Assembly (NCBI GenBank): GCA_034226945.1
Contig: CP120460.1
Coordinates: 62,001-126,000 of the forward strand
Length of the DNA stretch: 64,000 bases
From: Picochlorum sp. SENEW3
Taxonomy: Eukaryota
Direction: 5' to 3'
Numbering within the stretch: position 1 is the stretch's first letter; the number at the start of each line of letters is the position of its first letter. The notes under the pieces are model-generated. The model did no database searches. It was not told the origin of the DNA and worked only from the letters and a program-made list of their open reading frames with translations. This document shows positions 1,912 through 51,110 of this stretch, piece after piece. A program made the position numbers and the translations under genes.

Positions 1912-1921
1912 TATTTATAAA
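1912..1921 (+). promoter_or_regulatory. TATA element upstream of the permuted tRNA
   Basis: TATTTATAAA lies about 25-30 nt upstream of the start of the leader (about 1947) that pairs with the tRNA trailer. Confidence 0.55.
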
Positions 1922-1968
1922 GTGTAAAAAATTACTCCCCGTAATTGGATCATCGCATCCAGCCAGAC

Positions 1969-2070
1969 AGCTGGGGGTCCCGTGTTCGAACCACGGTAGA
2001 AGCAAACATGATGCCCCTCACGTAGGGATGTGCTTCTATAGCTCAGTTGGTTTAGAGCACCAGCCTTGTA
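1969..2070 (+). tRNA. trnT-UGU: Circularly permuted tRNA-Thr(UGU): 3' half 1969-2004, 27-nt spacer, 5' half 2032-2070
   Basis: 5' half is GCTTCTA-TA-GCTC-AGTTGGTTTA-GAGC-A-CCAGC-CT-TGT-A. The 3' half lies upstream: A-GCTGG-GGGTC-CCGTG-TTCGAAC-CACGG-TAGAAGC-A. All four stems pair perfectly when the halves are rejoined at 37/38. Confidence 0.93.
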
Positions 2071-2102
2071 TCTAGGAGGGCATGACGTCCTCTGCGAGCA
2101 AC

Positions 2103-2108
2103 TTTTTT
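2103..2108 (+). terminator. RNA polymerase III terminator (T6)
   Basis: TTTTTT about 30 nt after the 5' half, just past the BHB-forming trailer. Confidence 0.7.
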
Positions 2109-2166: not shown

Positions 2167-4153
2167 TCAGGCAGCTGATGCTTGCATCATGAGTTCACTC
2201 TCAGATCTGTACTCCCTTAGGACAACTGGCACACTTGTTGGTGGCAGAGCACCGACCTCGGTGATTATTACCGTGACAAATTCCGCGGGAGTTGTATCAT
2301 ACACCAAGTTGAGCAGCGACAAGTTTGACTGTCCGTCTTCCTGCTGGAGCGACTCGGCAAGAGGACCAGCCTTCTGCAGCAGTGCGGCAGGATTTGCCAA
2401 TTCATTGTTGGTGATGCTGTCTAATTGGACTCTCTCATGGAATTTGTACGTTTCCGAACAGACGATAACGGGGACGTTGGCCAGCGATGCTGACATGGCC
2501 ACTGCTGCCGTCCCGACTCTTGACAAGACTGCACCATTTGACATGACTGCTGCAGCCCCTAGCATCACTTTGTTAGCCTGATTCATACCAGTTTCCAAGC
2601 TGTTTAGAAGTAAATACTCGCATGGAATACCAACGCGCAATAATTCCGTCAGTAATTCCTTGCCCTCATACAAGGGCCCTGCATCTGCTATGACCACGCT
2701 AAACTCTTTACCCGCTGCCACAGCAGCTTTCAGGGTCTGCTCAACAGTTGATGAGCATGCATACGTCAGAATTATGTCACCATCGCTTATTTTACTTGCC
2801 GCCGTTCCAGACAGAGCTTTTTGAGCAATTGTTATCTTGTCTTGGGCAAATGTCGACACAAATCGTCTCAGTCCATTCTTTGCCTCCTCATTTGACAATT
2901 CTGTGTCCGCTGCTACATGCCCAAGTTCTGCCTTGATCGACTTGACCACGTTCCCCACAGCAGGGGATAGCGGCCGGCATCGAACTAAAAATGATACCAT
3001 ATTTTTCACTGCCACAGTGAATTCTCTGGTGAAAGATTGCCCCTCGGACAATTCGAATGACGAAATCACTCCATCAATCATCTGCAGGAGGGCCAGACTC
3101 CTCTTGTTTGTCCCTCTGAGGGATCCATCCAGCATTTTTTTACCCAGAGCCACACAGGAGACTGGAATGAACTTTTCTAACGCAGAAGATGCCAATTCTT
3201 CCATCGAAATAGACTGTTGTTTTGGTAAATGATCAAAAAATGCTGCAGGACGGGGCACACTGGCAGGATGCCTACTGGAACTCTCCTTTCTCGTCACGAC
3301 ATCCTTTTGAACGTCCTTCTTATTACTACGATGTTCTTCATCCACATTTCGTTTCTTTCCATCTGGTTGCTGCTGGTTCTGTGCGTTTGCAGCAGCCTTT
3401 GCAGCCCTCTGTGCCTCCTGAAGAGCCCTCCTCTCTGCTTTGGTCATCTGCTTTTTAGGTGGAATATCCCTATGCCCTTGCTCCTTCGTCTTTTTTTCTG
3501 TCGTACCTTCTTTTTTCACCGCTTTGTCTTCGTCTGCCGTCGAGGGTGTCGCCAGAGAATCTTTTCTCGTCAGCGACTGTTGCTGGAGAGGCTTGTCCTC
3601 CTCCTTGAACACTGTGACCGACACATCATCATGCTGCTCTACAGTCCCCAAAATGCTGTTCGACTCAATGGGAGTCAACGGCAACGGCTCCTGATCCTTT
3701 CCACGTGTAAATGAGGATGTGCCCGCTGGATTGTCTAAACTGCTCCTTCCACTCGGTGGCCGGTGCGTGGGAGAATACCTCGACCCGGCCGCTCGTCCAG
3801 GCTCGTCTATGCTCGTCCGCTTGCTCCCAGGAAGCTGACGGGGCGACGTCTCAGGAGTCCTTTGTCCCTGTACATTTTTCAATCCAATCAATGGTATGGA
3901 AGATGAATCACAACGCGCAGTACGTGTCCACGCTGTAGGTGACTGCACACATCGTACGCACCTGAAATGAGGGAGGGATGATCACCGGCGACAATGAGCC
4001 ACTTTTGATATTTTGTTTCATGAGCTCATCATTCTGAGGAGATGGCGTTGCACCTTCGACATGGAACCCAACCACCTTGCGAGTGGGGGCGTCAATGCCT
4101 TGCGACGACTGGCCGGTCGTGGATGTCCGTGACAAATCCGGCAATTTTGACAT
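2167..4153 (-). CDS. EIF2B4: Translation initiation factor eIF2B subunit delta; 2 exons, intron 3868-3961
   Basis: TKAERRALQEAQRAAK, CRPLS, MSNGAVLSRVGTA, CSETYKFHERVQLDSIT, YDTTP, LPPTSVPVVLRE. A GTGCGT...TACAG phase-0 intron joins ORF 3908..4153 to ORF 2167..3948. Confidence 0.93.
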
Positions 4154-6792: not shown

Positions 6793-8680
6793 ATGGATAT
6801 GTATACAGTAATATTTATGTTGGTAATGTCACTCGTATTACCTTGCGTAGGTGCGTCCATATTCGTATGTCGAGGGAGTTGACTGACAACTGTCAATCAA
6901 CCGTTAATCTATCACCTCAAGGATCCATCGGAATTTCCATGGTTACGATGTAAATTCAATTCATTATGGCTCAAAAATAATAATTTACCATGTAGAATCG
7001 AATAAAGGCCCCAAGGTATGGGGCCTCCACGGCGAGTCCTGGAATAGGGACCTGCTGCTGGACTGGTCGTACAGTGGATATGCGGGCAAAGAGCGAGGGT
7101 ATCCTGAGCCACCTTTTGGTGCGAATGTTTTAGATTTTGGTGCAGTCGGTGACGGAATAGTCGACTGCACGGGGCCTTTCCTGGCTGCGATAGACACAGT
7201 GTCAAAGCATGGAGGTGGCACCATTCTGATTCCAGCTGGAAGGTACCTCCTAAAAGGAAGACTTGTCCTGTCAGGGAACAACATTGTTCTCAAAGGTGAG
7301 GGAAACGAGAAGACGACTTTGTATTACGAGCATCCGCTGTCCTCGTATGATGATTTTGATGTTGAAAGACATCTAACAAAAGGCTTTCTGCAAAGCCCAT
7401 ACTCGTGGCGTGATGGCGTAATCCAGATTGTTGGGCATGATCGCGGTAGCAAAGATACCAGTAAAATGCCACATGGTTGGGTGGTTGAGCCGTCAACGAT
7501 TGGACAAAGGCATCTAATTCTCGATTCTGTGGATGGGCTTGTCCCAGGGCAATGGGTCAGGCTGATGCAATCAGATGTTGGAGGATCCCTGGCATCCCAC
7601 CTCTATGGGACAGATTTTGATAAAATTAGTCTAATGAAAACAACAGCGGATGACTGCGAGCCCCAATGCGCGTCTGACATATCAAACGAACAAGATTTAG
7701 TCAAATGGGTCTCCAGAATTTTAGAAATCCAGAATGGCAATGTGGTCGTCTTGCAACGTGCCCTTCCAATGGATGTATCACCAAAATGGAAAGCGAGGCT
7801 TCTTCCGATGCCGGATTCGATGCCAAAAGAGAGTGGTGTACGAGACTTGACGATTGAGTTTGCCTGGGCATCTGCTGGGAAGCATCATCATGATCAGGGG
7901 TACAATGGAATTCTGATTCAAAATGCTGTGAATGCATTTGTCTACAATGTGCACACCATCAACGCCCATCAAGGGTTCCTTGTGAAAAATTCCCAAATGG
8001 TATCCTTAGATTCTGTCAAAGTGGGTCGTACAAGATCAAGGAGGTCCAAGAGCATGCCATGGGATGGCCACATTGGCATTGGACTCTACGACAGCTCGGA
8101 TGTCGAGGTTGCAGAATTTGATATCCGTGGTGAGTGGTTGCATGATATATCGGTACGGGGTTGTCTCATGTCTGCATTTCACTCAGGAAGAGGAGACAAC
8201 CTGCGCATAGACACCCACAGGTCTGCACCCTATGCCATTCTTTTCTCAGACATTTATGTTGGGGAAGGCACGAGGACATTTGGGACTGGTGGATTTCTAT
8301 CACGAGGCCTCCCAGTTGCAAAATATACAACGTACTACAATATCAGGAATAAAAAGCACAAACCCATTGAGCTGCCTGCTTCCACAGTCGCCGGTCCATG
8401 CACTTGGGGTAAACAAGTCAACTACATTGGAAAATGGACAGGAAACGAGTGCCCAGGATATCACGTAGAATTCATTACAGATAGCCAGGTTCACCCAAAG
8501 GATCTATATAGCGCAATGTTGCGAAGAAAAGTGGAGACTCGAAATGACTTCCCAACAGGAGTCATCCCTGCCCTGCAGTCTCGACTGGCAAAGACCACCA
8601 GCAACACCGATCAACCTCCGAAAATATTCCCCGCTGGTGATGGATCCTATCCTGTTGTACACTATCCTGAAACATATTAA
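6793..8680 (+). CDS. Secreted right-handed beta-helix protein (pectate-lyase-3/GH28-like superfamily), paralog 1; intron 6851-6995
   Basis: Signal-peptide exon MDMYTVIFMLVMSLVLPCV, then WGLHGESW...DWSYSGY...NVLDFGAVGDG...AAIDTVSKHGGGTILIPAGRY...IVLKGEG. Confidence 0.8.
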
Positions 8681-20076: not shown

Positions 20077-23000
20077 CTACTCCTCCTGCTCTGTCCTCGG
20101 ACCCTTTGCTTTGTCAACAGCACGAGAATGCTTCCAATGCTCCATTCTTGGTGACCGCTGTACCTCCGGTCCCTGGATCTCACCCTGTCTACTCATCATA
20201 TCCATGCCCACGTAGCCCGGCATCATATGATGAGGGACATGGCCTGGGCTTGCAACTGGGTTCACAAACTGTGTTGGCATCATTTGAGCATGCTGCATGA
20301 CGGGCACATAGTGGACAGGACTGTATGGATACAAGAACCCTCCATTATACATTGCTTGATCCATCGGGTGCAAGCTGGTATATTGCTGATTATACCCAGA
20401 CTTGTACAGATCTTGAACAGATTGTTGCAAGGCATGGCTTTGGGTCAAGCCTTTCTCTGCATTATTGCCCCCCATATGTAGCTGTCTCGGGGTATTTCTT
20501 CTTGAACCGTGACTGGGAGTGCTCTGATTTGAGAACCCCTGTCGTGGACTTCTTCTCGTATTCGGATCGCGAGGACTAGGCTGCGTTTTGATGCGAGGCC
20601 TTGGGCTGGGTTCGGACTTTGCATCTTCCCCAAGTTGCATTTCATCCAAAAATGCACGCAAATCCATGGAACTAGGTAAAGAACAATCTCCAACTCTAAC
20701 ACAAGGAAATCCTTCGTACACGTTCGAGTTCTGCCTACTGAATTGTGACGATGATCTCCTTATGAGTGCATCTGACAGGGTCGAAGGAAGCTGCTCGATC
20801 GTGTTGGAGAGGCTATGGTTCGATTCGATTCCACCTAGATTCTCTTGAGAACTACCGGAGGCGTTATCGTGTGTCACGCTCGAATCTCTGGGCACTGTAG
20901 CAGCTTCTTGCTGACGTTGTAGCCTTTCCAAATTCTTCAAATGGCGCCTGCCTTTTTCATGCTCTTTCAGGTGGGCTTCTGATGTTGTCACGATACCACA
21001 TATTGAACAGATACGTCTCTCAGTATCGGGAGGGCGTACATCTTGTGTATTTGTCGCTCCTGTGAAGGGAGATTGAGGAATGTTGGATGGTGAGGTACCC
21101 TGCCCCATCAACTCTCCTGGGCGCACATACCCTTGGCCCGCAGTCTCCCATGGCTCCTGGCGCTTCACAATAGATTCCACTAACAATTTAGTCTGCCAAT
21201 ATGCCGATATTGTGCCTGAATTCGCAAGGGAAACCAGTGCTGCCTCAGCAGCTGCATCCCTGGCCTCAGAAGATGATGCAGCCAACTGCCCAACAAATGG
21301 ATTCTGCAACATTAAAAAGCGATATAGAACAAATAAAATACACGCGGTATCAAATAAGAAGAAAGTACCTGTTCGGAGCCTCGTTTTCTGCTAAGTACGT
21401 GGCCAAAATCTTCAGCAGTCATGATCAATGCCTCTGGGAGAATGGCTGTTGCCTGCCACAGTCCATTACCTGAATGGGGATCTTCCACTTGTACTTGATA
21501 CAGGTTAAATTTTGGAGGATATCCAGATAATCCCAAACACAGTGTGTGCAGAATCGTCGAAGGTGGCGGAACAGCAAGTGATAGCGACTGCAGGTGACTC
21601 ATTTCATGGAAAAATGCTGACTTTCCATGCACAGTAAGTTGTGCCAAGCTCTCTTCCAGTGAAGCATCCCCACAGTGTACAAATTCTGCTGCTGCAAGAA
21701 GCATTTGATCTGCTTTAGAAATTTCAATCCACGCAAGGGATTGCTCTCTTGTTGCAATAATATGACAGCATGGACCAGCAGTTGCGTCTTTCTGCTCTGT
21801 ATGCTGTGGTGCCCCCGTACCACAAATGTCACGAAGGACATTCAATGCAGTAGACTCATAATCAAATCCAGCTGCATGAATCACACTGGCTGGACTATAC
21901 CAAAGAATGTGGCCATTCGACTGTTTAATCTCATTCAGTCGATCACTTGATTCAACATATTCTTCAGTGATGAAATACAACATCTGGAGTTCCGCTGGCA
22001 CCGGTTCCATCACCTCCTCAACTTGTAAGAGATTATCTTTTGGTAAATGTGTGCTCAAAAATTCAATCAAAGAACGAGCAGAGGCTCCATCCTGCACAAC
22101 TACATACACGGGCCTATCCAAGTCTGGGCAACCCAAGTCTTTCAATAATGATGCACACATGTCCATCCTTGATGATCTATTCAGAGAATCCTTAAATTTA
22201 TCACAGAGAACGACTTTTAGTTCCTTGCATAGATCCACACCCAAAGACTGAGCCAAGGGAGAGGATTCCAGTGCTGCAACAGCATCCTTGGCAACTCTGG
22301 TCTCCAGGCTATCCTCATCTTTCGAGTCATATAAATCACCTAATTTCTCTCTAAATTCTTCAATACTGGACACAAATATATCAATTGCTGACTTCATTGT
22401 TTCGCCCATGCATACAACAAGGGCTTTGATGCATGATCTCACATGCTCCATCACCAAGAGTGCTGCATCACTCCTGCAGTGCGCAGCACCAGACTTTGGC
22501 AAATTTGCCGTGAAAGCAATCGAATGCTCTACCATAAGCATGATCTGTTCCCAGTCATGATGGACTGGGTTCACGTATAAATCCTCCCTCGCTTCCTTCT
22601 CTCCATCTTGCACACTTTCATTCACTGTAGGGAAATGAATTAGCCTGCCGAAGTGGTTCTGACTGTGCGCGTGCAAAACATCCCACACATGAAGTAAGTG
22701 TTTCTGAATCGACCCAATCAGGAGAGATTCGTCTTCACAGGGAGTATAAGCATGAAATGCCAGCCGGGAACTGTGAATTTTCTGTGCAAGGGATTCAAGT
22801 GCATGCCCTGTTGGTAAGCAAATCCCAGCCTGAGCACTATGCGACAATCTTCGAATAACCTGCCTCAATTTATCGAAAGGCCGTTTCAGTGTATGGGTCT
22901 GTGGAAGCATTGTTCCCAGTAACTTTGGCCTGACAACCTCCTCTGAAGAATCCTCTGTGGCAGCAAGTTTCCAGTAGTACTCTCTGACAAGGGTATTCAT

Positions 23001-23527
23001 CGGGTGATTTCGAACTGCATGGAAAGCATCATGAAGAACCAGTAATGAACTTTGATCCAAGCGGTACACCCCCAGCTTTGTGAGCCTCATCAGCAATCCC
23101 GCTGTGAAAACGAGGACTCGATTCTGCTCAAACTCCTTGGGGAAATCATACAGAAAGTCTCCCCCGCAGTACCTGCACAAAAAATACCACCATTACGATA
23201 GTAATACGCACATATGCACGAGACATACACTCCCACAACGTACGCTCCCACAGGCACACGGCCCTTCAACGATCTCCTCAGCCTTTGAGCTCCAGACAGC
23301 ACTTGAGCAGGTCTCAGCACACACACCACAACATGCTTCTCAGGAAACCTCGAGAGCATGGTATCAATCACCGCATCAACTACTTTCATCTGACCAAGCC
23401 CAGTCGGAAGAAATGTGATTTCATTCCCAGGAGATTTGATAATTTGCTCAATCATCTGATGTCGGAAATTCTCCGCACCCCCTCTCCTCGACTGCACATG
23501 CGATCCTGCTGTACCTTTCTCGGACAT
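20077..23527 (-). CDS. Dicer/RIG-I-type SF2 helicase-like protein with degenerate ATPase motifs, a dsRBD/DUF283-like domain and a U1/matrin-type C2H2 finger; introns 23173-23243 and 21304-21368
   Basis: Three ORFs join through canonical introns. Motifs: FLPTGLGQM, VLVFTAG, LVLHDAFHA..NHP, PKLLG, SEARDAAAEAALVSL, CSIC..HLKEHEKGRRH. Confidence 0.7.
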
Positions 23528-25925: not shown

Positions 25926-27233
25926 CTAGAAATGTATCTTCGACCATCTTGTTGCCATGCCTCTACATTTGAACATCCTGCCGGTCTTCGCTTCCTGTTT
26001 CTTGGCTGCTTGGCTCTTGATTTCATCTTTTAGAGATCGTATTTCCTCATTCTTCTTTTTGATCACTTGTTGTAAACCAGAATCATCCTTCTCCTTGGCA
26101 GCCATTTCTCTAAGCGATTTCACGTCGTCTTGTAAAGAAGTTATTTTCCTAAGCAAACTTGCTTGTTTAGGGACATCGAAAGCTGATGCATTTGCATGCA
26201 GTTGGGAGTCAAGTATTGCATTTGCATGGTCATCATCCACTTGACACATCCTACTAGGCTGTTCTCGAAGGTCTTCATCATCGCTGCTTTCTATGCCTGG
26301 CGTGTAATCATTCCTATTGGAAACGGTTCCTCTTGCTGCAGAAGCCTGGATGATGTTTGATGTCAACCCCATGCTGCATACATTGGAAGCATCAGGTGAT
26401 GGTCTCGACAACCATTGCATTACTTCCTTCCAGTCGTCTCCTGGTGGGACTAACCCTGCATAGGCTCCGTTGTTGTCCCTTATATACCGCCCAAAGTTGT
26501 CCCAGTAGACATCAGCAGATCCTCTTAGTGCAGCTACAACTTGGCTTCGCAACTTGCCCAACCGAAGGTTGGATGTTGTGTTGTTCGTATAGGTCGTCAC
26601 GTACTTGAAGAATTTGGTCAAGTCGGTAATTTTTCTCCTTCTGCCTTCCTTCTGAATTTCATAAAGGACTCGCACCCGGCCAGGTTCCCAAAAGTATTTA
26701 TCCACAATACCCTTTCGTCCCCTTGGCCTCTCTAGAGCAAAGGCGCCGTAAACTTCCCCATATTCTTCCTGATCCTTGTGAATTCTTGGCCAATACTGGT
26801 ACAACATGCCCAATATCCATTTCTTGAAGTCGGCGTCTTGGGGGCTATCACTCTGACGAGTTGATATGGCAGTTGAGCCATGAAACCCGCTGGTGCCCTG
26901 GGTCTCTAGGCAATCTTCTGCAGTAAATATAATAGTAATATGAGAAATATCATCGCTTTCTGATCTCTTCTGCAGTCTGCAAGATAGACAATTCGATAGG
27001 GTCCGAAGGCCAACCGTTTTCTCTTCGCTGCACTTTTCCACATTCAGGTACAAGCGAATTTTTTTCCCTTTCTCACACTCTAATTTTTTAATTGTTTCCT
27101 CCAACTCTTTCAGGATCATATCGGACGTCCAACCCTCGTAAACTGTGCACAACTCGTGCACGTCGGTGCCATCTGGACTCCGCAAACGAACAGCCGTCTC
27201 CAATCCAGGACTGAGGAAAACCTCTTCGCTCAT
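25926..27233 (-). CDS. CACTA second ORF of unknown function (possible TnpA-equivalent or cargo), C-terminal coiled coil
   Basis: 435-aa ATG ORF inside the TIRs, divergent from the transposase; no domain recognised. Confidence 0.6.
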   Translation of the reverse strand: MSEEVFLSPGLETAVRLRSPDGTDVHELCTVYEGWTSDMILKELEETIKKLECEKGKKIRLYLNVEKCSEEKTVGLRTLSNCLSCRLQKRSESDDISHITIIFTAEDCLETQGTSGFHGSTAISTRQSDSPQDADFKKWILGMLYQYWPRIHKDQEEYGEVYGAFALERPRGRKGIVDKYFWEPGRVRVLYEIQKEGRRRKITDLTKFFKYVTTYTNNTTSNLRLGKLRSQVVAALRGSADVYWDNFGRYIRDNNGAYAGLVPPGDDWKEVMQWLSRPSPDASNVCSMGLTSNIIQASAARGTVSNRNDYTPGIESSDDEDLREQPSRMCQVDDDHANAILDSQLHANASAFDVPKQASLLRKITSLQDDVKSLREMAAKEKDDSGLQQVIKKKNEEIRSLKDEIKSQAAKKQEAKTGRMFKCRGMATRWSKIHF

Positions 27234-27505: not shown

Positions 27506-30490
27506 ATGACTCAGGACCTTTGCCACAACTGTCGCAGGACGATGCCATCCTCTCGCAGTGGGAAAGCACATCACATTCAAGGTAAATGCAAGTCGATTTT
27601 CACAGGGGAGCTCACTGTAGGTGATGCACCTCCCATGATAGCCACGGAGCAGTTGAGTCCAGATACAGCAGAAGTGCCTACACCCGTGCAGAATTCAGGT
27701 GAAGATGCTGCAGAGGATGGCACTCCTTTTGAATATTACAATACTTACACCTCTATTCCCAAGAAAAACACAGTCGAGTATTACGTCAGCATGATGAACG
27801 AGCCTGTTTTCACTGGTGCAAACCAAACGTTGAAGGAATACTTGCAGTCATCATTTGCACTCTATGTCTCAAGTGGTATGGGGAAAGCAACATTCGAAGA
27901 GCTATTACAACGAGATCGAGTCTTATTGGAGAATTTTGATCCCATCATCCCCAAATCCCTGTATCTCGTGAGAGAATCCCTTGGCATTCCCAAGGCTGAC
28001 CAGGTTGAGCATCACATTTGTACTTGCCTGCAGTACATATTCGACCGTCTTCCCAAGGAGCAATGGATCTCACACAAGGATGATAAGTGTAAAGGTTGTG
28101 AGAAGCCTCGATTCAACGTAGTGAGAAATTTTGATGGTTCTCTCAGGGTCACGCCCAGGAAGGTACTCATCTCTTGTCAAATAGTATTTACTATCCATGA
28201 GACCTATCGATTCTGATCTTATTTGCCTGCTCTGCAGAAGTTTTATGCATTCAATCTTGAAAGTCAAATCAAGCGTCTCTTCCGTATACCTGACTTTGCG
28301 CAGAAAAGAGGGTCGCAAAGGGAGCAGAACTTAGTCTACCAGTCCGAGCACTACGAATGGTTAGTAGGAGCCACCCGTGGGGGGGTGGCACAGGTCAGCA
28401 ATAGTGTGTATAGTGTTGGGTTTGATTGGTGTCAGGCTACTAAATCAAAAGAGCATTCTATGGGAGTTGTAAGCATGCGATGCGAGGACTTGCCAGCAGA
28501 TCTAGCCCACAAGGACAGCATGACAGTGCCATTGCTCTACTTACCGGGCCCCAAAGAGCCAACCTGTCTGAATGCGTTGTTCAATTTGATCGCTGCACAA
28601 TTTACTAAGGCAGCAGAGTCTGGTATTCAAGTGAGCTATATTAACAGCGAAGGCAAGCAAGTGGAAATACTCCACAAACCGTATTGGGTATTTATCCACT
28701 GTGATTCCCCTGCACGAAGCAAATTAGGTTGCTTCAATGGAGCTAATGCTACCTTTTGCTGCCCATACTGCCGTCATCCTTCAGTTCGAGTTGAAAAAGC
28801 ATTGAAGCCCTTGGGCTACCTCGAGCCTGTCTCTTACTTGCATTATATATGTGTGACACAAAAAAGAGGAAGAGCAACGACTTCTGACCTACCAAATGGG
28901 TGTCAGAAGACAGCGATTGTCCCTAGAAAACATGGAACACCGGGAGAAGCTGTTTATGTACTTGATCAAGAAAGGGAGATATCAGCACGAGGAGATCAGG
29001 AAAGAGTTGGGCATCAATGGGAAATGTGACCTGTTTGGGAAAGTGACCACACTACACCGTGTGCATGCCTTTCTCCTTCCCTTTTACCATCTCATTTTTC
29101 TTGGAGTACTCAAAACGTTTTTCACTCTTCTTGTGAAGAAGGACCCGAAAAAGAAGGCTAGGAAGAAGAGAAATAGAACAAAGGACAGGGATGAAGATGG
29201 ATCAGATACAAATGAAGTTACGATCTTCCGCCTGAGCAAGCTCAAGGAATTGAATAATTGTATCATCTCAACATCTGACCTGGGAAGGCCACCGAGATGT
29301 TTATCAAATATTGCGGCATTCCTTGTCGAAGACGCGAAGAACCTTTGGGAGTTTCAAGGCACTCTCCTTATGCACCCAGCAGTAACAAGTAAAGTCCTGG
29401 GTCTCGAAGACGGAGTGCTTCCACCACTAGCAAAAGAGGCATGGGGATATTTAAGAAGAGGAATTGACTTTTTTTATGGATCAGGACACAGTGTCTCTTG
29501 ACAAGCATGGCCGCACAACACTGGCTGCAAAGGAAGCACAAGAGAGCCTGCTGGAGTTTGCCAAGATATGCGAAAAGGTATGTGGAGATGCATGTGCCTC
29601 ATTACGCATTGCGCCTCCTTTCAAAATTTAAACATCGTAATTTGCAGAATTTTATGCCAGTGTGCACGCAAAACCTGCACATCCTTATCTGCAGACTATT
29701 AGATCAGGAGAAGGCAACAGGAAAAGCCAAGTTCATGAATGAGTTGCACATTGAGAGATCGCTTCAATTCTTTAAGAAGAATGCCACAGGAAAAGCAGAA
29801 CCAGAAAAGGTTGCATTACAGAAACTGTTGGACCACTACTACCTGGAGGAGTGCTGTGGCAAGTCATCTGCTTCCAGCATCACCCAGGTATCTCAGAGCA
29901 AGAGCAGCCCTTTCATTGCATCGGATGAGGATTTCTTTACAGGCCCAACAAAGGCCACGGAGAAACAGATGGAACGCATTCAGGCGTTCTGTCGACGTTC
30001 CAACATCAGGGCACATACATCAGATTGCAAAGTTTACAAAGTTGCTGAACTACACCGAGATGGCAAGATTGAGAGAGTAAATTCATCTTTGTACAACAGG
30101 GAGCGGACACGACAGTCAAATACTGTGCTTGTTGACATGAATTCATCGGGCTCATCGCACCACCTTGGAGTTGGCATTGTGAAATTTTTCTTTTCTGTAG
30201 AAGTCGATGGGACAGAGACAATGGCAGCAGCCATCCAAATATATCGTGATGACCAGGTTGAATTTCATCATGATCACGACTTTGGCACAGTAATTGAAAT
30301 CAAAATCAATCGGGACCACAAGCTGATACGTATTCGATGCCTTCCCTTGGAGAAGATACTGACAAAGGTCGTTCGTTTAAACTGCAGTGACCTGGACAAG
30401 AACGGGAATCCCACCGAGGAAACACAAGTCAAATATAGCGACTTTGTTGTACCAAAATCTCAAAAGTGGCTCAGACATATCGATTCGTAG
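27506..30490 (+). pseudogene. CACTA TnpD-like DDE transposase; introns 28163-28237 and 29578-29647; two apparent +1 frameshifts (near A6 28860-28865 and at T7 29469-29475)
   Basis: HIC.C..C.GC.KPRF, GFDW (D), HCDSPARSK (D), CCPYC, FYHLIFLGVLK, CTQNLHIL, NELHIERSLQFFK (E). The reading frame is restored only by the two introns plus two single-base removals. Confidence 0.8.
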
Positions 30491-46571: not shown

Positions 46572-47570
46572 ATGGTTCGTGTCGGTTACATTCTTCCTAG
46601 GCCTTGGAATTGCCGGGTGCCTTTGAGATCCTATACAGCCCAGGCATCATCGCGAAACCATTCTTCTTCCCCTAATAATGCTGGTTCCGAGTATGGAGAG
46701 GGATTCACAGTCTTTACGAGAACAGGGGAACGGACGAGGCTGGATGTCGATACCATGAACGAGTCTTTAAAGGTCCGTGGTGCTGATAGGATGAGGTTTT
46801 CTATGCATCCGGATCAGGCATTTGGGTTACTTTACGATTTGGATGCTCTCATGGATGTTGATGTGTGGACAAAGGGGGCGTGGTTGAATGTGGCCAGATC
46901 TAATCGACTTGGGTTTCCTCATCCATCTGACGCTGTTTGGGATCGGGTGAGTGGCATGATGGCTGAGAGGGCGATACTGGAGGTTCTTCGTTGGACGGAT
47001 GATATCAAGGTGGCACGGGCGTTGGCATTTGAGGTGTATGAGGCAATAGAGGATACAGATGGGGTGGGGGACAAGCTTGTGTATGATGACACTGTTGGAT
47101 GGGTGGAGGTGACGACGCAGGAGTTTAAGATTCCTTCTGCATTGGTGTCATCTATGAGTAGAAAAGCTGTGACTGGGTTGCTGGGGGAGGGCGTGGTGGG
47201 GTACTTTGATGCGCTGGTTACCGGGGAAGATGATATGGAGACGACATCATTGCAGTATTTAGCTGCTGCCTTGAAACTTGGGCGGGCTCCTGAGCAGTGC
47301 GTCGTGTTTTGTACGTCTCAGAATTCTATTGTTGCGGCGCATAATTGTTCGATGAGGGCGGTGGGGGTGATTGGTAGATGCTCTGCGCATCAGCTGCGAG
47401 GGGCTGATTTGACAGTTGGGTCTTTAAAAGAGTTGTCAGTGTATAATATCCGGCGATTGTTTGCGAATAAAGGTGGTGGCAATTTTATGGATTTGGAAAA
47501 GAAAATTGATGATGATGTGGGACAGGAACCTGGACGGAGGGTTCGCCATGCTACAGATGAAGCAGAATGA
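46572..47570 (+). CDS. HAD-like hydrolase, probably plastid-targeted
   Basis: Transit-like N-terminus; YDLDAL, FDALVTGED, LGRAPEQCVVF, AAHNCSMRAV, ADLTV.SL.ELSV.NIRRLF. Confidence 0.8.
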   Translation: MVRVGYILPRPWNCRVPLRSYTAQASSRNHSSSPNNAGSEYGEGFTVFTRTGERTRLDVDTMNESLKVRGADRMRFSMHPDQAFGLLYDLDALMDVDVWTKGAWLNVARSNRLGFPHPSDAVWDRVSGMMAERAILEVLRWTDDIKVARALAFEVYEAIEDTDGVGDKLVYDDTVGWVEVTTQEFKIPSALVSSMSRKAVTGLLGEGVVGYFDALVTGEDDMETTSLQYLAAALKLGRAPEQCVVFCTSQNSIVAAHNCSMRAVGVIGRCSAHQLRGADLTVGSLKELSVYNIRRLFANKGGGNFMDLEKKIDDDVGQEPGRRVRHATDEAE

Positions 47571-47579
47571 ACGAATGAA

Positions 47580-50500
47580 TTATAATCCAAATGTTCTCTT
47601 TTTTGTGGGCCGAGGGCCTCCTATGGATGCAATGGATGCTCGCTGTTTGGCGCGCTGTTTCTGTTTCGCTTCCTCTTCAATATTCTTTAGCTTGGATTCT
47701 TCCTCTTTCACGCTCTGCATCTCGCGCTCCATGGCTATTTGCCTGGATTTGAGCTGGGAGGCATGGTCCAAGCGGGAAGCATCCGTCTCTTTGATGGAGA
47801 AGAATGCGGGGCCGAGTTCAGCAAGCCATTCTGGATCCACTGCAGTAACGCATTGCATGTACTCTTTCGTTGTAAATACGAGCTCGTGGTAAATTATATA
47901 GTCTGGAGTGTATCCTAGACCGTACAATGCGGATGTCGGGTGTAAATGACATGGGATGCCTGTTCGGCAGTTGACATATTCTCCAATGCCCTTGAGCTTG
48001 CCTGCATTGTGAAAGTATGCAGAACATATTGCCTTTCGTATAATATCCCAATCGTTTCCACACGACACGATACGAATCTTTTGCTGCTCCATGATGTCCA
48101 ACAGTTGCGAACGGACCTCTTTTGCCTTCTTCAAGCCTTTTGGCTGCAGGAAGTGTGCGCTGCACCAATCACTTCTGTATCCGTTTGTCTTCCACTGCTG
48201 ATACACGTGAAGGAGCGTGAGATGGTCAGATTCTGGGACAAAGAATTTTTCGCGGGCAGCATCACTCTCTTCAGCTCTGTCTGGTGGTCTGAAAAATACA
48301 GAAGGGACACTAAGCATGGATACAATGGTCAGCACTTCATTAGAGCAACCCATTTCTTCACCCACGAGCAGCATTTTTGCCAGGGGTGGATCTAATGGAA
48401 ATTCAACCATCTTTCTTCCCAATTTTGTGAGGGAACCCGTGTTGTCCAAGGCACCCAATATCCACAATTGATACATGGAGTTGGCAATGTTTTCTTGTGG
48501 AGGAGGGTCCATGAAGTCAAACTGCATCAAGTCCTTGACGTTCAGGCTCTTGAGCAGCAAGACGACGTTGGCGAGGTTGGTCCGCTGTATTTCTGGAACT
48601 GTTGTCGGAAGCATCTCATGAACAAATGCGCTCTCTGTGTACAGTCTCCAGCAGGTTCCTGGTCCGGTCCTCCCTGCTCTTCCAGACCTCTGGTTTGCAG
48701 CAGCCTGTGACTCGGGGAATACTGTCAATGCATCCATTCCAATTTTCGAATTGTACACTTTCATTTTCACGTATCCTGTGTCGATCACGTAAATGATTCC
48801 ATCGACTGTGAGAGATGTTTCTGCTATATTGGTTGATACAATGCACTTTCTGGTTCCCTCTGGTGCTCGCTCAAAAATTTTTGCCTGGAGATCCGAAGGC
48901 AGCTGGGAATAAATTGGTAAAATTAGCAAAGGGTTGATGCCCTCTCCCAAGTGCTCCAGTCTCTCTTGCAAAGCAAAGCACGTTGCTTCGATTTCCTCCT
49001 GACCCGTCATGAAAATGAGAATGTCTCCTGCTGGATGCCCGAGATGTACTGCTATTGCTTGTTTCACGGCAGCCTCAACATAATCCTCTTGGGGAGTTTT
49101 CGAAAACATGACGTCGACAGGGAACGTCCTTCCAGGAATCTTGAAAATTGGAGCACGGCCAAAGAAGTTTGAAAATTTATCTGCGTCCAGCGTTGCAGAT
49201 GTTACTATCAATCTGAAGTCACGCCTTCTGGAAACAACTTTTTTCAGGATTCCAAAGAGGACATCCGTATTAAGAGAGCGCTCGTGTGCCTCATCCATGA
49301 TAACAGCGCTATACCTGTCCAAGTCAGGTTCTGTCAACGTCTCCCTCAACAAGACACCATCAGTCATGTACTTGATGGCAGTATCTTCAGATGTGACATC
49401 CTCAAAACGAATTGAATACCCCACCTCTTTTCCTAGTTCGACCCCCATTTCATCGCTAACACGCTTTGCAACACTCATTGCCGCTACTCTTCGTGGCTGT
49501 GTGCAACCCACTTGACCAACCTTTGTAAATCCTTCCTCATGCAAATATTGTGTCATTTGAGTTGTCTTGCCACTTCCTGTTTCACCAACAACAATGACAA
49601 CTTGATTCTCTCGAATAACTTGTATCATCTCATCTCGCACGCTAAACGCAGGTAAATATTTCCTCTGCTCTGAAATGCTCTTTGTCTTTGCAAACTCGGA
49701 AACTGCCTCAGATTTCTTCATATGAGATTTGAATTGTGATCTTTCCCGCCGCGCCTTTCTGCCTTCTTCCCCTTCCTCATCTGAGTTTACTTCTGTGGGA
49801 TCGACCACGTCATCCCCGGCTTCTTTTCTCAATTCCTCTCGCGCTTTTTCCCCTTCCTCCACCTCTTTCTCTGTCAATCCAGTGATTTTACCAATTTTTG
49901 AGCCAGCCACTTCCCAGAATCGAGCCCTACTCTTATTTGCGTCCTTCTTCTCGCGGATTTCTTTGACAATTTTACTCCCATTTCGTGCGATAACAGCCAA
50001 ATCAGATGTCGGATCCTTCAAAGGCATGACAGGGCCCTTTTGCTTTGTAAACAAAAACCGCCCATCCAAAAAGGGAGGTCTTGTATCATGAACGAGCAGC
50101 AAAACTCTGGAATCGCCATCATGTGTCATATCAAGATCCACCTCAAGAGGGTTGACGACACCGCTAGTAAGAAGTCTATTCTCTTCCCAAGCATTCATGT
50201 CCTTTTGCATTTCAGAAGCCCGTTTGCTCTGAGCCAGTGTCATCAGACTTCCGTCCCTCCTGGTCAATTTCTTCTGAGCAATCTCTTTCCGCCGCACAAG
50301 CGATGGGTCATTCTCAGCATCACCCAAGAACGGATCATGGCTTTGGTCCAAAGCCCCTCCTTCCTCCTGAGCATACCATTCTCGATCAAGCTGCTCTTCT
50401 ATTGCTTCAAGTTCTGCATAATCCACTGCAGGCTCTCTACGACGGTCATCTACTTGATACCTATTTCTACCGTCCTCATCTTCAAATCGAACCCGTCCAG

Positions 50501-51110
50501 TATCCCTCACATCTCTCCTTTGCAGTCGAGATCCAGGCCGTGATACATGATGAGATGCTGATGGGGCGTCCCAGCTGCTACTATAATGAGACGGCCGCCT
50601 TGATTCTCTCCTCTCACCTCCTCTTGAAGGAGTATCTTGCCAAGAAGAAGACGACGGCCTCCTATCATCATCATATCTCCTTTTATATCGACTCGATGAA
50701 TACCCACCTCCATCCCTCCGTCTTGCTCCCCGCTCCTCATCCGCATCCCTGTCCCGCGCTCGAGACGTATCATACTCTCGCTTCTTCCTCGAACTATGCT
50801 CTCGCCTCCGGAACCCCTGCTCTTTCCCAACGCCGTCCTCCTCTTCATCCAACCCACTAAACGATATTGCCACACCTTGCTTCTGCTGCTTCTCTCGCCT
50901 CTTTTGAGCAGCCAGCTTATCTAAACCTGAAATACGGGTACAATATTTTAGAATATATGCTATAATATGAATTATATGCCTACTGTACGCACCTAGAATA
51001 GACCGGCGAGGTTCCGGTGCCCGAAAAGTATGCTTGTCCTCCTGCTCCTCCTTGTCCCCACGTCGCTTCATTATTTGAAGCCCTCCCACATCAGAACCAG
51101 ATTCCTCCAT
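47580..51110 (-). CDS. PRP16: Pre-mRNA splicing DEAH-box helicase PRP16/DHX38; in-frame intron 50927-50992
   Basis: [40 protein letters not shown]16-specific LDREWY and [10 protein letters not shown]. Confidence 0.96.

What the first reader, a model, noticed from the sequence alone, without database searches (positions are those of the whole stretch)
1947..2108. Circularly permuted tRNA-Thr(UGU) gene with a BHB-like processing motif
Seen: the tRNA 3' half (nt 38-73; 1969-2004) precedes the 5' half (nt 1-37; 2032-2070). Rejoined, they give a perfect cloverleaf: acceptor GCTTCTA/TAGAAGC with A73, D stem GCTC/GAGC, anticodon stem CCAGC/GCTGG, T stem CCGTG/CACGG, anticodon TGT. The break is at the canonical 37/38 intron site. 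The flanks form a bulge-helix-bulge. The 3-nt bulges are AC|A (1967-1969) and TA|T (2069-2071). The central helix pairs CTTG with CCAG (3 of 4 pairs, including the C32:G anticodon-intron pair). The outer helix pairs GGATCATCGCATCCAG (1947-1962) imperfectly with CTAGGAGGGCATGACGTCC (2072-2090). Established: permuted tRNAs mature via splicing-endonuclease cleavage, a circular intermediate, and RNase P/tRNase Z opening. They are known from Cyanidioschyzon merolae, prasinophytes (Ostreococcus, Micromonas), the Bigelowiella nucleomorph and the archaeon Thermofilum. Inference: this host looks like a compact trebouxiophyte, and I do not recall permuted tRNAs being described there. Standard tRNA finders would miss it and report the isoacceptor as absent.
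Basis: partly seen in the sequence, partly recalled or inferred. Interest (0 to 1): 0.93.

Follow-up and report, generated by a model that had tools for sequence, protein, structure and literature searches.

The report
Back-to-front threonine tRNA gene in Picochlorum
A small green alga (Picochlorum) writes its threonine tRNA (anticodon UGU) gene with the second half before the first, a rare layout already known from a few other algae, so it adds a new case, not a new kind of gene.

Summary
Window 1969-2004 (3' half), 2005-2031 (27-nt spacer) and 2032-2070 (5' half) rejoin into a perfect 75-nt tRNA-Thr(UGU) cloverleaf. Standard finders miss the native locus. It is not chance: 1 of 201 candidate arrangements passes ARAGORN in the window, against 0 in 30 shuffled windows. 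It is not a misassembly: contigs from two other studies span the same arrangement. A TATA-like box lies upstream and a T6 run downstream.

The host is a Picochlorum, a trebouxiophyte.

The junction is at 37/38 with a relaxed hBH-type motif.

The leader looks like a decayed copy of the 5' half, in register (10 of 5000 shuffles). [quoted passage not shown]

Expression was not shown. No whole genome was held, so I could not test whether a conventional Thr(UGU) gene is absent.

Permuted tRNA genes are already published for the trebouxiophyte Auxenochlorella (2025), and a permuted Thr(UGU) for the prasinovirus BpV1 (2013). Verdict: real, a new member of a known kind, moderate interest.

The parts
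1912..1922 (+). TATA-like box (TATTTATAAAG), 47-57 nt upstream of the 3' half; probable upstream RNA polymerase III promoter element
   Evidence: Read directly. Soma 2014 (section 4) reports a TATA-like sequence within about 50 bp upstream of the 3' half of most C. merolae permuted genes. In relative X9, positions 1921 and 1922 differ, but the TATAA core is kept. Promoter function is inferred.
1945..1964 (+). Leader segment that resembles the D-loop to anticodon-stem part of the 5' half (TTGG...CCAGCC); probable decayed 5' half of an ancestral upstream tRNA copy
   Evidence: Local alignment gives 15 identities in 20 columns, in register with the junction. Among shuffled leaders, 61 of 2000 score as high, and 10 of 5000 score as high and are in register. 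Among random window 49-mers, 23 of 5000 are in register. ARAGORN also accepts the leader as the D/anticodon part of a tRNA-like fold with a 4-nt 'agac' anticodon. The test was post hoc.
1963..1969 (+). 3' side of the junction motif: CCAG (1963-1966), which pairs with nt 32-35, then the 3-nt bulge AC|A (1967-1969); predicted 3' cleavage between 1968 and 1969
   Evidence: Sequence. Pairs are C2065:G1966, T2066:A1965 and G2068:C1963, with a T2067/C1964 mismatch. Cleavage is inferred from the 37/38 rule (Soma 2014, section 8).
1969..2004 (+). tRNA 3' half, nt 38-73: anticodon-stem 3' strand, variable loop GGGTC, T arm, acceptor 3' strand, discriminator A73; no encoded CCA
   Evidence: No difference from the window in independent contigs X5 and X9.
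2005..2031 (+). 27-nt intervening sequence between A73 and G1; to be removed by RNase P and tRNase Z after circularisation
   Evidence: Published intervening sequences range from 1 to 74 bp (Soma 2014 Table 1). It contains no T-run. X9 differs at 2007 and 2010, and the 2007 change breaks a predicted pair, so the spacer hairpin is not conserved.
2032..2070 (+). tRNA 5' half, nt 1-37: acceptor 5' strand, T8, D arm with G18G19, anticodon-stem 5' strand, C32 T33, anticodon TGT, A37
   Evidence: No difference from the window in X5 and X9. Rfam tRNA model reaches 19.0 bits over 2032-2100, below its gathering score of 29.
2069..2071 (+). 5' side bulge TA|T; predicted 5' cleavage between 2070 and 2071
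   Evidence: Sequence. Cleavage is inferred.
2071..2102 (+). Trailer. It folds on itself in predictions. Its end, TGCGAGC-A (2093-2100), can pair at 6 of 7 positions with the acceptor 5' strand, so it may be the decayed 3' half of an ancestral downstream copy (weak).
   Evidence: Folds. The below-threshold Rfam tRNA alignment uses 2093-2100 as the acceptor strand. Similarity to the 3' half is not significant: 1129 of 2000 shuffles score as high. The 6-of-7 pairing was counted by hand.
2103..2108 (+). T6 run, probable RNA polymerase III terminator (a second T5 lies at 2113-2117)
   Evidence: Read. A downstream T-stretch is a feature of permuted genes (Soma 2014, sections 4-5). Function is inferred.

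Best explanation
This is a functional, circularly permuted (type II, junction 37/38) nuclear gene for cytosolic tRNA-Thr(UGU) in a Picochlorum green alga.

Inferred pathway:
1. RNA polymerase III starts downstream of the TATA-like box (1912-1922) and stops at the T6 run (2103-2108). The transcript is leader, 3' half, 27-nt spacer, 5' half, trailer.
2. The two halves fold into the tRNA body. The acceptor stem is closed by the spacer, and the anticodon stem is formed by the start of the 3' half and the end of the 5' half.
3. The tRNA splicing endonuclease cuts after A37 (2070|2071) and before A38 (1968|1969). It is guided by the mature domain, the C32:G1966 anticodon-intron pair and a relaxed hBH motif.
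4. tRNA ligase joins A37 to A38, giving a 102-nt circle.
5. RNase P and tRNase Z remove the spacer, and CCA is added.

The gene most likely arose from a tandem pair of Thr(UGU) genes whose outer halves decayed. The leader still carries a recognisable remnant.

Shown here: the gene layout, the perfect cloverleaf, the flanking signals and the presence of the layout in independent assemblies. Inferred: transcription, every processing step and function.
For: - The rejoined halves give a perfect 75-nt cloverleaf with T8, G18G19, G15/C48, T33, A37, TTCGA T loop, A73 and no encoded CCA.
- The native locus is invisible to ARAGORN, with or without introns, and to Rfam at gathering score.
- Chance control: 1 of 201 candidates in the window, 0 in 30 shuffles, 0 of 195 in the reversed window. 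A wider search at any junction position tested 618 candidates and 99,912 rejoined sequences and hit only this locus.
- The same arrangement sits in single contigs from two other studies. X5 (3243 nt) has no difference between 1741 and 2247. X9 (7726 nt) has 8 substitutions at 1921-1951 and at 2007 and 2010, and none in the 75 tRNA nucleotides.
- The TATA-like box, the T6 run and a 27-bp spacer without a T-run match the published anatomy (Soma 2014).
- ACA is the commonest Thr codon: 161 of 438 Thr codons in 17 Pfam-supported ORFs. A UGU tRNA is therefore needed.
- The leader is a decayed in-register copy of the 5' half, while the inner halves are intact. That pattern points to selection on exactly the permuted pair.
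- The host is Picochlorum (99% identity to a Picochlorum sp. BPE23 protein). The related genus Auxenochlorella has published permuted tRNA genes.
Against: - No RNA evidence. The two RNA runs laid do not cover 1866-2092 and show no joints.
- No genome is held, so a conventional Thr(UGU) gene elsewhere cannot be excluded.
- The lack of substitutions in the halves in X9 is not significant on its own. With 8 changes in 426 covered intergenic bases, I calculate by hand a chance of about 0.2 that none falls in 75 nt.
- The central helix has only 3 of 4 pairs, the outer helix is at chance level, and BHB-enforced folds cost 5-7 kcal/mol more than the alternatives.
- The unconstrained minimum-energy fold pairs leader CCAGC with the 3' half's GCTGG and does not form the anticodon stem.
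- No orthologue from a more distant relative was found, so there is no covariation evidence.
Confidence: 0.85

Rival explanations
1. It is a non-functional relic. A tandem pair of Thr(UGU) genes is decaying, and the two inner halves merely happen to be intact still. A conventional Thr(UGU) gene elsewhere supplies the tRNA.
For: The leader looks like a decayed 5' half. No expression data cover the locus. No genome was available to check for another gene. The conservation seen in X9 is not statistically significant (hand calculation).
Against: All 21 stem pairs and all checked universal nucleotides of the inner halves are intact. The outer halves have decayed: 15 of 20 identities survive in the best-preserved leader stretch, and the trailer shows no significant similarity. 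Neutral decay should not spare exactly the two halves that complement each other. The TATA-like box and T-run frame the permuted unit. Published tRNAscan-SE counts for Picochlorum nuclear genomes are low at 24 and 42, which leaves room for undetected genes (PMC6141220 Table 1).
Confidence: 0.08
2. It is a tRNA-like non-coding RNA (a Y-RNA-like / YrlA-type mimic) that is never circularised or used for decoding.
For: The best Rfam match over 1972-2062 is YrlA, because that family has the same order of T arm, acceptor hairpin and D arm (21.4 bits, E 0.097). A pattern built from this locus retrieved capped tRNA mimics in viral tRNA arrays.
Against: The YrlA score is far below the gathering score of 69, and there is no hit at gathering threshold. 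Here the acceptor is closed by a 27-nt spacer with a free A73, not capped by a 3-5 nt loop. The ends also reconstitute a complete 7-nt anticodon loop with TGT exactly at 37/38, which a mimic does not need.
Confidence: 0.03
3. It is an assembly artefact of a tandem or conventional tRNA gene.
For: None found.
Against: Single contigs from two other studies (X5 from a gut metagenome, X9 from organism B) span the leader, both halves and the trailer in the same order. Collapsing a tandem repeat would give a conventional single copy, not a permuted one (inference).
Confidence: 0.02

Closest known systems
Type II (37/38) permuted tRNA genes of Mamiellophyceae (Ostreococcus, Micromonas, Bathycoccus) and the Bigelowiella natans nucleomorph (Maruyama et al. 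2010, not read; as tabulated in Soma 2014, PMC3978253 Table 1, and Michely et al. 2013, PMC3673656 Table 1)
   Same: The 3' half lies upstream of the 5' half on one strand. The junction is at 37/38 with a relaxed hBH motif. The intervening sequence is within the published 1-74 bp range (27 bp here). There is an AT-rich/TATA-like upstream region and a downstream T-run, and no encoded CCA.
   Different: The host is a Picochlorum, class Trebouxiophyceae. Thr(UGU) is not among the 34 genes of Soma's Table 1. The leader keeps a recognisable remnant of the lost 5' half.
Permuted tRNA genes of Auxenochlorella UTEX 250-A (Plant Cell 2025, PMC12636532; main-text passage and Supplementary Fig. S1 legend seen)
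   Same: Trebouxiophyte (Chlorellales) host with a streamlined genome. tRNAscan-SE gave an incomplete set, and permuted genes fill it. In the helicase search, Auxenochlorella is among the nearer named relatives of the window's organism, at 86% identity.
   Different: The only example I could see there is trnP-UGG. I could not see a full list, so I do not know whether Thr(UGU) is permuted in Auxenochlorella. The genus and GC content differ.
Permuted tRNA-Thr(TGT) of Bathycoccus prasinos virus BpV1 (Michely et al. 2013, PMC3673656, Supplementary Table 5, read whole)
   Same: Same isoacceptor, marked 'permutated'.
   Different: It is a viral gene with a different sequence (a different acceptor stem and D arm). 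There is no indication of common origin with the Picochlorum gene.
Cyanidioschyzon merolae permuted tRNA-Thr(CGT) and Thr(AGT), type II (Soma et al. 2007, not read; Soma 2014 Table 1)
   Same: Threonine tRNAs permuted at 37/38, with 31- and 24-bp intervening sequences and upstream TATA-like boxes. Expression through a circular intermediate was shown experimentally in that species (abstract, and section 5).
   Different: Red alga, other anticodons. C. merolae also has junctions at 20/21, 50/51 and 59/60 and extra introns.

Membership tests
Circularly permuted tRNA genes, type II (junction 37/38) | The 3' half lies upstream of the 5' half on the same strand, separated by an intervening sequence (published range 1-74 bp) | tested here: met
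   1969-2004, then a 27-nt spacer, then 2032-2070, all on the + strand. Range from Soma 2014 Table 1.
Circularly permuted tRNA genes, type II (junction 37/38) | The rejoined halves give a canonical cloverleaf with the eukaryotic consensus elements (U8, R15:Y48, G18G19, U33, U54U55C56) and no encoded CCA | tested here: met
   ARAGORN tRNA-Thr(tgt), 75 nt, all stems paired. Segments listed. AAC follows A73. Consensus list from Soma 2014, section 4.
Circularly permuted tRNA genes, type II (junction 37/38) | BHB or relaxed hBH motif at the junction (3-nt bulge, 4-bp central helix, flanking helix) | tested here: inconclusive
   The anticodon stem (h) and both 3-nt bulges are present. The central helix has 3 of 4 pairs. 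The outer helix is at chance level (121 of 500 shuffles), and BHB-enforced folds are 5-7 kcal/mol worse. Green-algal junctions are described as hBH.
Circularly permuted tRNA genes, type II (junction 37/38) | Upstream TATA-like sequence, downstream T-stretch, and no promoter or terminator signal in the intervening sequence | tested here: met
   TATTTATAAAG at 1912-1922, T6 at 2103-2108, and no T-run in 2005-2031. Criteria. Function not tested.
Circularly permuted tRNA genes, type II (junction 37/38) | Expressed: a circular intermediate and a mature tRNA carrying the 37/38 junction | not testable with these tools
   The one read-laying run showed no RNA cover of 1866-2092 and no joints in two RNA runs kept as contigs. 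This says nothing either way.
Circularly permuted tRNA genes, type II (junction 37/38) | Needed for decoding (no conventional gene for the same anticodon) | not testable with these tools
   No whole genome is held. Within the 64-kb window there is no other tRNA of any kind. ACA codons are frequent.
YrlA / Y-RNA-like tRNA mimics (Rfam RF02553) | Match to the family model at or above the gathering score (69 bits) | tested here: not met
   21.4 bits, E 0.097. No hit at gathering threshold.
YrlA / Y-RNA-like tRNA mimics (Rfam RF02553) | The acceptor-like stem is capped by a short loop and there is no anticodon loop | tested here: not met
   A 27-nt spacer with unpaired A73, and a complete CTTGTAA loop on rejoining. 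That these features define the family is taken from the Rfam consensus line and from recall.
Conventional or tandem tRNA gene | A contiguous tRNA detectable in the native sequence | tested here: not met
   ARAGORN finds 0 genes with or without introns. The Rfam tRNA model reaches 19.0 bits against a gathering score of 29.

The most novel reading that the evidence does not exclude
The permuted gene is the only Thr(UGU) gene of Picochlorum and is evolutionarily young. Its leader, and perhaps its trailer, are the still-recognisable outer halves of a tandem pair of intron-less tRNA genes. If so, this locus is a natural snapshot of the duplication-and-loss route to permuted tRNA genes, starting from an intron-less ancestor where the published model uses an intron-containing one. 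Comparing the same DAGAT-eIF2B intergenic region across Picochlorum, Nannochloris and other Chlorellales could then catch the intact tandem stage. Permuted genes would also explain the low tRNAscan-SE counts (24 and 42) reported for Picochlorum genomes.
Probability: 0.3. Interest if true: 0.55.

Novelty: new member of a known kind. Interest (0 to 1): 0.4.

Why it matters
**Annotation.** Standard pipelines will report Thr(UGU) as missing in Picochlorum, a genus used in biotechnology and aquaculture. Codon-usage and tRNA-supply models built on those counts would be wrong.

**Evolution.** The finding adds a second trebouxiophyte genus to the hosts of permuted tRNA genes. That bears on whether the trait is old in green algae or arises repeatedly in streamlined genomes.

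**Origin.** The remnant of the lost 5' half in the leader, if confirmed in sister species, is direct sequence evidence for the tandem-duplication origin, which has been mainly a model.

It is not a new kind of gene or mechanism.

Tried and rejected
- **Whole-genome search.** No genome is held for this window, so there is no genome-wide tRNA census.
- **RNA evidence.** Two metatranscriptome runs, X15 and X16, were kept only as contigs. They give no cover of 1866-2092 and no joints, which says nothing about expression.
- **Orthologues by DNA pattern.** The metagenome scan gave 5 loci, all in viral-type tRNA arrays and none algal. Genome contigs gave 1 locus in a Moraniibacteriota MAG. Viral contigs gave 2 loci on the same two contigs as L003 and L004. 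So there is no covariation test of the cloverleaf or of the junction.
- **Conservation in relative X9.** There are 0 changes in the 75 tRNA nucleotides against 8 in the flanks and spacer. I calculate a chance probability of about 0.2, so this does not count as evidence of selection.
- **Strict hBHBh' motif.** Rejected.
- **Trailer as a relic of the 3' half.** Not significant (1129 of 2000 shuffles).
- **Spacer hairpin as a conserved feature.** Rejected, because X9's change at 2007 breaks a predicted pair.
- **Earlier notes of this scan.** Nothing by place or by sequence.
- **ATG7 for taxonomy.** Uninformative: named hits are all at about 40-43%. The DEAH helicase settled it.
- **Supplements.**
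  - The bioRxiv copy of the Auxenochlorella paper holds no 'permuted' text.
  - In the Plant Cell copy I saw only the legend of Fig. S1, so a full list of permuted genes may exist that I did not see.
  - Supplementary file 1 of PMC3673656 was not searchable.
- **Literature on Picochlorum.**
  - 'Picochlorum' with 'permuted' gave 7 papers, 5 listed, and none of the listed titles or abstracts is about Picochlorum tRNA genes.
  - 'permuted tRNA' alone gave 74 papers, 40 listed.
  - The six-term search gave 1,506 papers, 20 listed, and only the Auxenochlorella paper among those listed holds 'permuted tRNA'.
  - 'Picochlorum' with 'tRNAscan-SE' and 'tRNA genes' gave 6 papers, 4 listed.

Full report
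**What is in the sequence.**
- 1969-2004 holds A38, GCTGG, the variable loop GGGTC, the T arm CCGTG/TTCGAAC/CACGG, the acceptor 3' strand TAGAAGC and A73.
- 2005-2031 is a 27-nt spacer.
- 2032-2070 holds the acceptor 5' strand GCTTCTA, T8 A9, the D arm GCTC/AGTTGGTTTA/GAGC, A26, CCAGC, and C32 T33 TGT A37.

I sliced the two pieces from the window file and rejoined them in a script. ARAGORN calls the result a 75-nt tRNA-Thr(tgt) with every stem fully paired. After A73 comes AAC, so CCA is not encoded.

**Standard tools miss it.** ARAGORN finds no tRNA in the native 64-kb window, with or without intron search. Rfam at gathering thresholds finds nothing in the whole window. With relaxed thresholds over 1500-2600, the tRNA model reaches only 19.0 bits (gathering score 29) over 2032-2100. 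The best match is the Y-RNA-like family YrlA at 21.4 bits (gathering score 69) over 1972-2062. That family shares the order T arm, acceptor hairpin, D arm.

**Chance.** I scanned both strands for a T arm directly followed by a 7-nt strand that pairs at 6 or more of 7 positions with a strand 1-159 nt downstream. I rejoined each candidate and asked ARAGORN.
- The window gave 201 candidates and 1 confirmed, this locus.
- Thirty dinucleotide-preserving shuffles gave a mean of 184.9 candidates each and 0 confirmed. The reversed window gave 0 of 195.
It again hit only this locus.
- The window therefore holds one permuted tRNA gene and no other tRNA gene.

**Artefact.** One read-laying run put Logan contigs of four runs on 1650-2450.
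- A 3243-nt contig from a gut-metagenome study (X5) spans the whole stretch and shows no difference between 1741 and 2247.
- A 7726-nt contig from a related organism (X9, coded organism B) spans 1741-2450. It differs at 1921, 1922, 1934, 1937, 1943 and 1951 (upstream and leader) and at 2007 and 2010 (spacer).
- X9 has no difference in either tRNA half, and none from 2011 to 2247.

The permuted order is therefore present in independent assemblies. The absence of changes in the halves fits constraint but is not significant alone. With 8 changes in 426 covered intergenic bases, I calculate about 0.2 for none falling in 75.

**RNA.**
- The oligo-dT metatranscriptome X15 covers 2093-2450. It has a poly-T loose end before 2093, which is the poly(A) site of the minus-strand eIF2B-family mRNA.
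- X16 covers 1650-1862, downstream of the DAGAT ORF, probably its mRNA's 3' end.
- Neither covers the tRNA, and no joints were seen.
- Expression is therefore untested.

**The junction.** With a break at 37/38, the canonical positions give bulges AC|A (1967-1969) and TA|T (2069-2071). The central helix pairs 2065-2068 (CTTG) with 1963-1966 (CCAG): three pairs, including C32:G1966, and one T/C mismatch.

The best leader/trailer duplex is -14.8 kcal/mol against -12.7 +/- 3.1 for shuffled trailers, and 121 of 500 shuffles do as well or better. With the four tRNA arms enforced, the best fold (-50.1) lets leader and trailer form their own hairpins. Enforcing the central helix gives -44.7, and enforcing the first outer pairs as well gives -42.8.

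The unconstrained minimum-energy fold (-52.2) pairs leader CCAGC with the 3' half's GCTGG.

Soma's review classes the junctions of green-algal and nucleomorph permuted pre-tRNAs as relaxed hBH motifs at 37/38. That is the form suited to the eukaryotic endonuclease, which also reads the mature domain and the anticodon-intron pair (PMC3978253, section 8). The locus fits that relaxed form. It does not show a strict hBHBh' motif.

**Flanking signals.**
- TATTTATAAAG lies at 1912-1922, 47-57 nt before the 3' half.
- A T6 run lies at 2103-2108, 33 nt after the 5' half, followed by a T5 run at 2113-2117.
- The spacer has no T-run.

The review describes the same anatomy: a TATA-like sequence within about 50 bp upstream, a T-stretch downstream, nothing in the intervening sequence, and intervening lengths of 1-74 bp (sections 4 and 5). 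The unit sits in the gap between two convergent mRNAs, which end near 1862 and 2093.

**A remnant of the lost half.** The leader 1945-1964 aligns with nt 16-34 of the 5' half, from the TTGG of the D loop to CCAGCC, with 15 identities in 20 columns.
- The alignment ends one base out of register with the junction.
- By score alone, 61 of 2000 shuffled leaders do as well.
- By score and register, 10 of 5000 shuffles and 23 of 5000 random 49-mers of the window do as well.
- Four cross-controls (leader vs 3' half, trailer vs 5' half, spacer vs either half) were unremarkable: 1719, 1579, 1406 and 1444 of 2000.
- ARAGORN accepts rejoinings that use the leader as the D and anticodon part, with a malformed 'agac' anticodon.

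The trailer is not significantly like the 3' half (1129 of 2000). Its end, TGCGAGC-A at 2093-2100, can pair at 6 of 7 positions with the acceptor 5' strand (my count), and it sits just before the terminator.

This was a post hoc test, so I treat it as suggestive. It fits the published duplication-and-loss model (section 10 passages). There is one twist: the remnant abuts A38 with no room for an intron, so the ancestor would have been an intron-less tandem pair.

If the flanks are decayed halves, the intact state of the inner halves argues for selection on the permuted pair.

**Need for the tRNA.** In 17 Pfam-supported ORFs of the window (9442 codons), ACA is the commonest threonine codon. The counts are ACA 161, ACG 105, ACT 101 and ACC 71.

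**Host.**
- The window is gene-dense eukaryotic nuclear DNA of about 44-49% GC with long open frames.
- The core of a DEAH-box helicase (47580-51110, minus strand) is 99% identical to a protein of Picochlorum sp. BPE23 and 93% to a JGI 'Picsp_1' protein.
- Next come Nannochloris and Micractinium at 87% and Auxenochlorella at 86%.
- Published Picochlorum genomes are about 13.3 Mb and about 46% GC. Their nuclear tRNA counts by tRNAscan-SE are 42, 24 and 75 (PMC6141220 Table 1, passages).

**What is known.**
- Soma 2014 lists 34 permuted genes in C. merolae, two Ostreococcus, two Micromonas, the B. natans nucleomorph and Thermofilum pendens. Thr(CGT) and Thr(AGT) of C. merolae are type II, and Thr(TGT) is not listed (Table 1).
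- Michely et al. 2013 count 7 permuted genes of 33 in Bathycoccus and one in the prasinoviruses BpV1 and BpV2 (Table 1). Their Supplementary Table 5 marks the BpV1 Thr(TGT) as 'permutated'.
- The Auxenochlorella genome paper (Plant Cell 2025) says tRNAscan-SE gave an incomplete set and that permuted tRNA genes were then found, with trnP-UGG shown in Supplementary Fig. S1.
- A 2026 review still names only red algae, O. tauri and B. natans (passages).
- My searches found no paper describing permuted tRNA genes in Picochlorum.

Permuted tRNAs are therefore already described in trebouxiophytes, and a permuted Thr(UGU) is already described in a virus of a green alga. New here are the genus and the cellular Thr(UGU) case. 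The remnant in the leader may also be new.

**Verdict.** This is a real, very probably functional, type II permuted tRNA-Thr(UGU) gene (confidence 0.85).
- Shown: the anatomy, the non-chance cloverleaf, the flanking signals and the independent assemblies.
- Inferred: transcription, cleavage, circularisation, end trimming and use in translation.
- It is a new member of a known kind.
- Interest is moderate (0.4). The value lies in algal genome annotation and in the origin of permuted genes, not in a new mechanism.

Noticed in passing
L001:3433-3471(+), L002:439-477(-), L003 and L004:5001-5039(+), L005:5001-5038(-); L007 and L008 are the L003/L004 contigs in IMG/VR; L006:1501-1538(-) in a Moraniibacteriota MAG: The pattern built from this locus retrieved capped, back-to-front tRNA-like elements inside dense tRNA arrays (13, 15, 15, 21 and 6 ARAGORN tRNAs in L001-L005). 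Two of the contigs are catalogued as viral. Each element has a T arm, an acceptor 3' strand, a 3-4 nt loop, an acceptor 5' strand and a D arm, with complementary leader and trailer. T-stem pairs change in a compensatory way between loci. Rfam gives no hit at these places at gathering score. They look like YrlA-type tRNA mimics, not decoding tRNAs. The arrays of L001-L005 also hold a conventional tRNA-Thr(tgt).
   Followed up: partly
window:2093: An oligo-dT metatranscriptome contig ends at 2093 with adaptor plus poly-T. This marks the poly(A) site of the minus-strand eIF2B-family mRNA (ORF 2167-3948). That mRNA's 3' end overlaps the last ~16 nt of the predicted tRNA precursor up to the T6 run, so a Pol II and a Pol III unit converge and overlap.
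   Followed up: no
window:2121-2140: A short GGATAT microsatellite lies just downstream of the T-runs. Read laying flagged 2107-2147 as a skipped repeat where contigs seem cut, and depth dips there in X5 and X9.
   Followed up: no
window:1740-1744: Downstream of the DAGAT ORF, probably in its mRNA's 3' untranslated region, contigs of X9 and X16 carry small A-rich insertions (AAA, AAAAC) and a C>A change. X9 shows two alternative contigs here, which suggests strain or allele heterogeneity.
   Followed up: no
window:4850-6460(+), 7199-8680(+), 21312-23090(-), 25926-27233(-), 29507-30490(+), 46572-47570(+): Six long open frames (327-592 aa) have no Pfam family at E <= 0.001. They may be lineage-specific Picochlorum proteins.
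   Followed up: no
window:15768-16832(+): A 354-aa ORF carries a GIY-YIG domain (PF19239, E 1.2e-11). Several overlapping ORFs on both strands lie in the same kilobase. It could be a nuclease of a mobile element or a repair protein.
   Followed up: no
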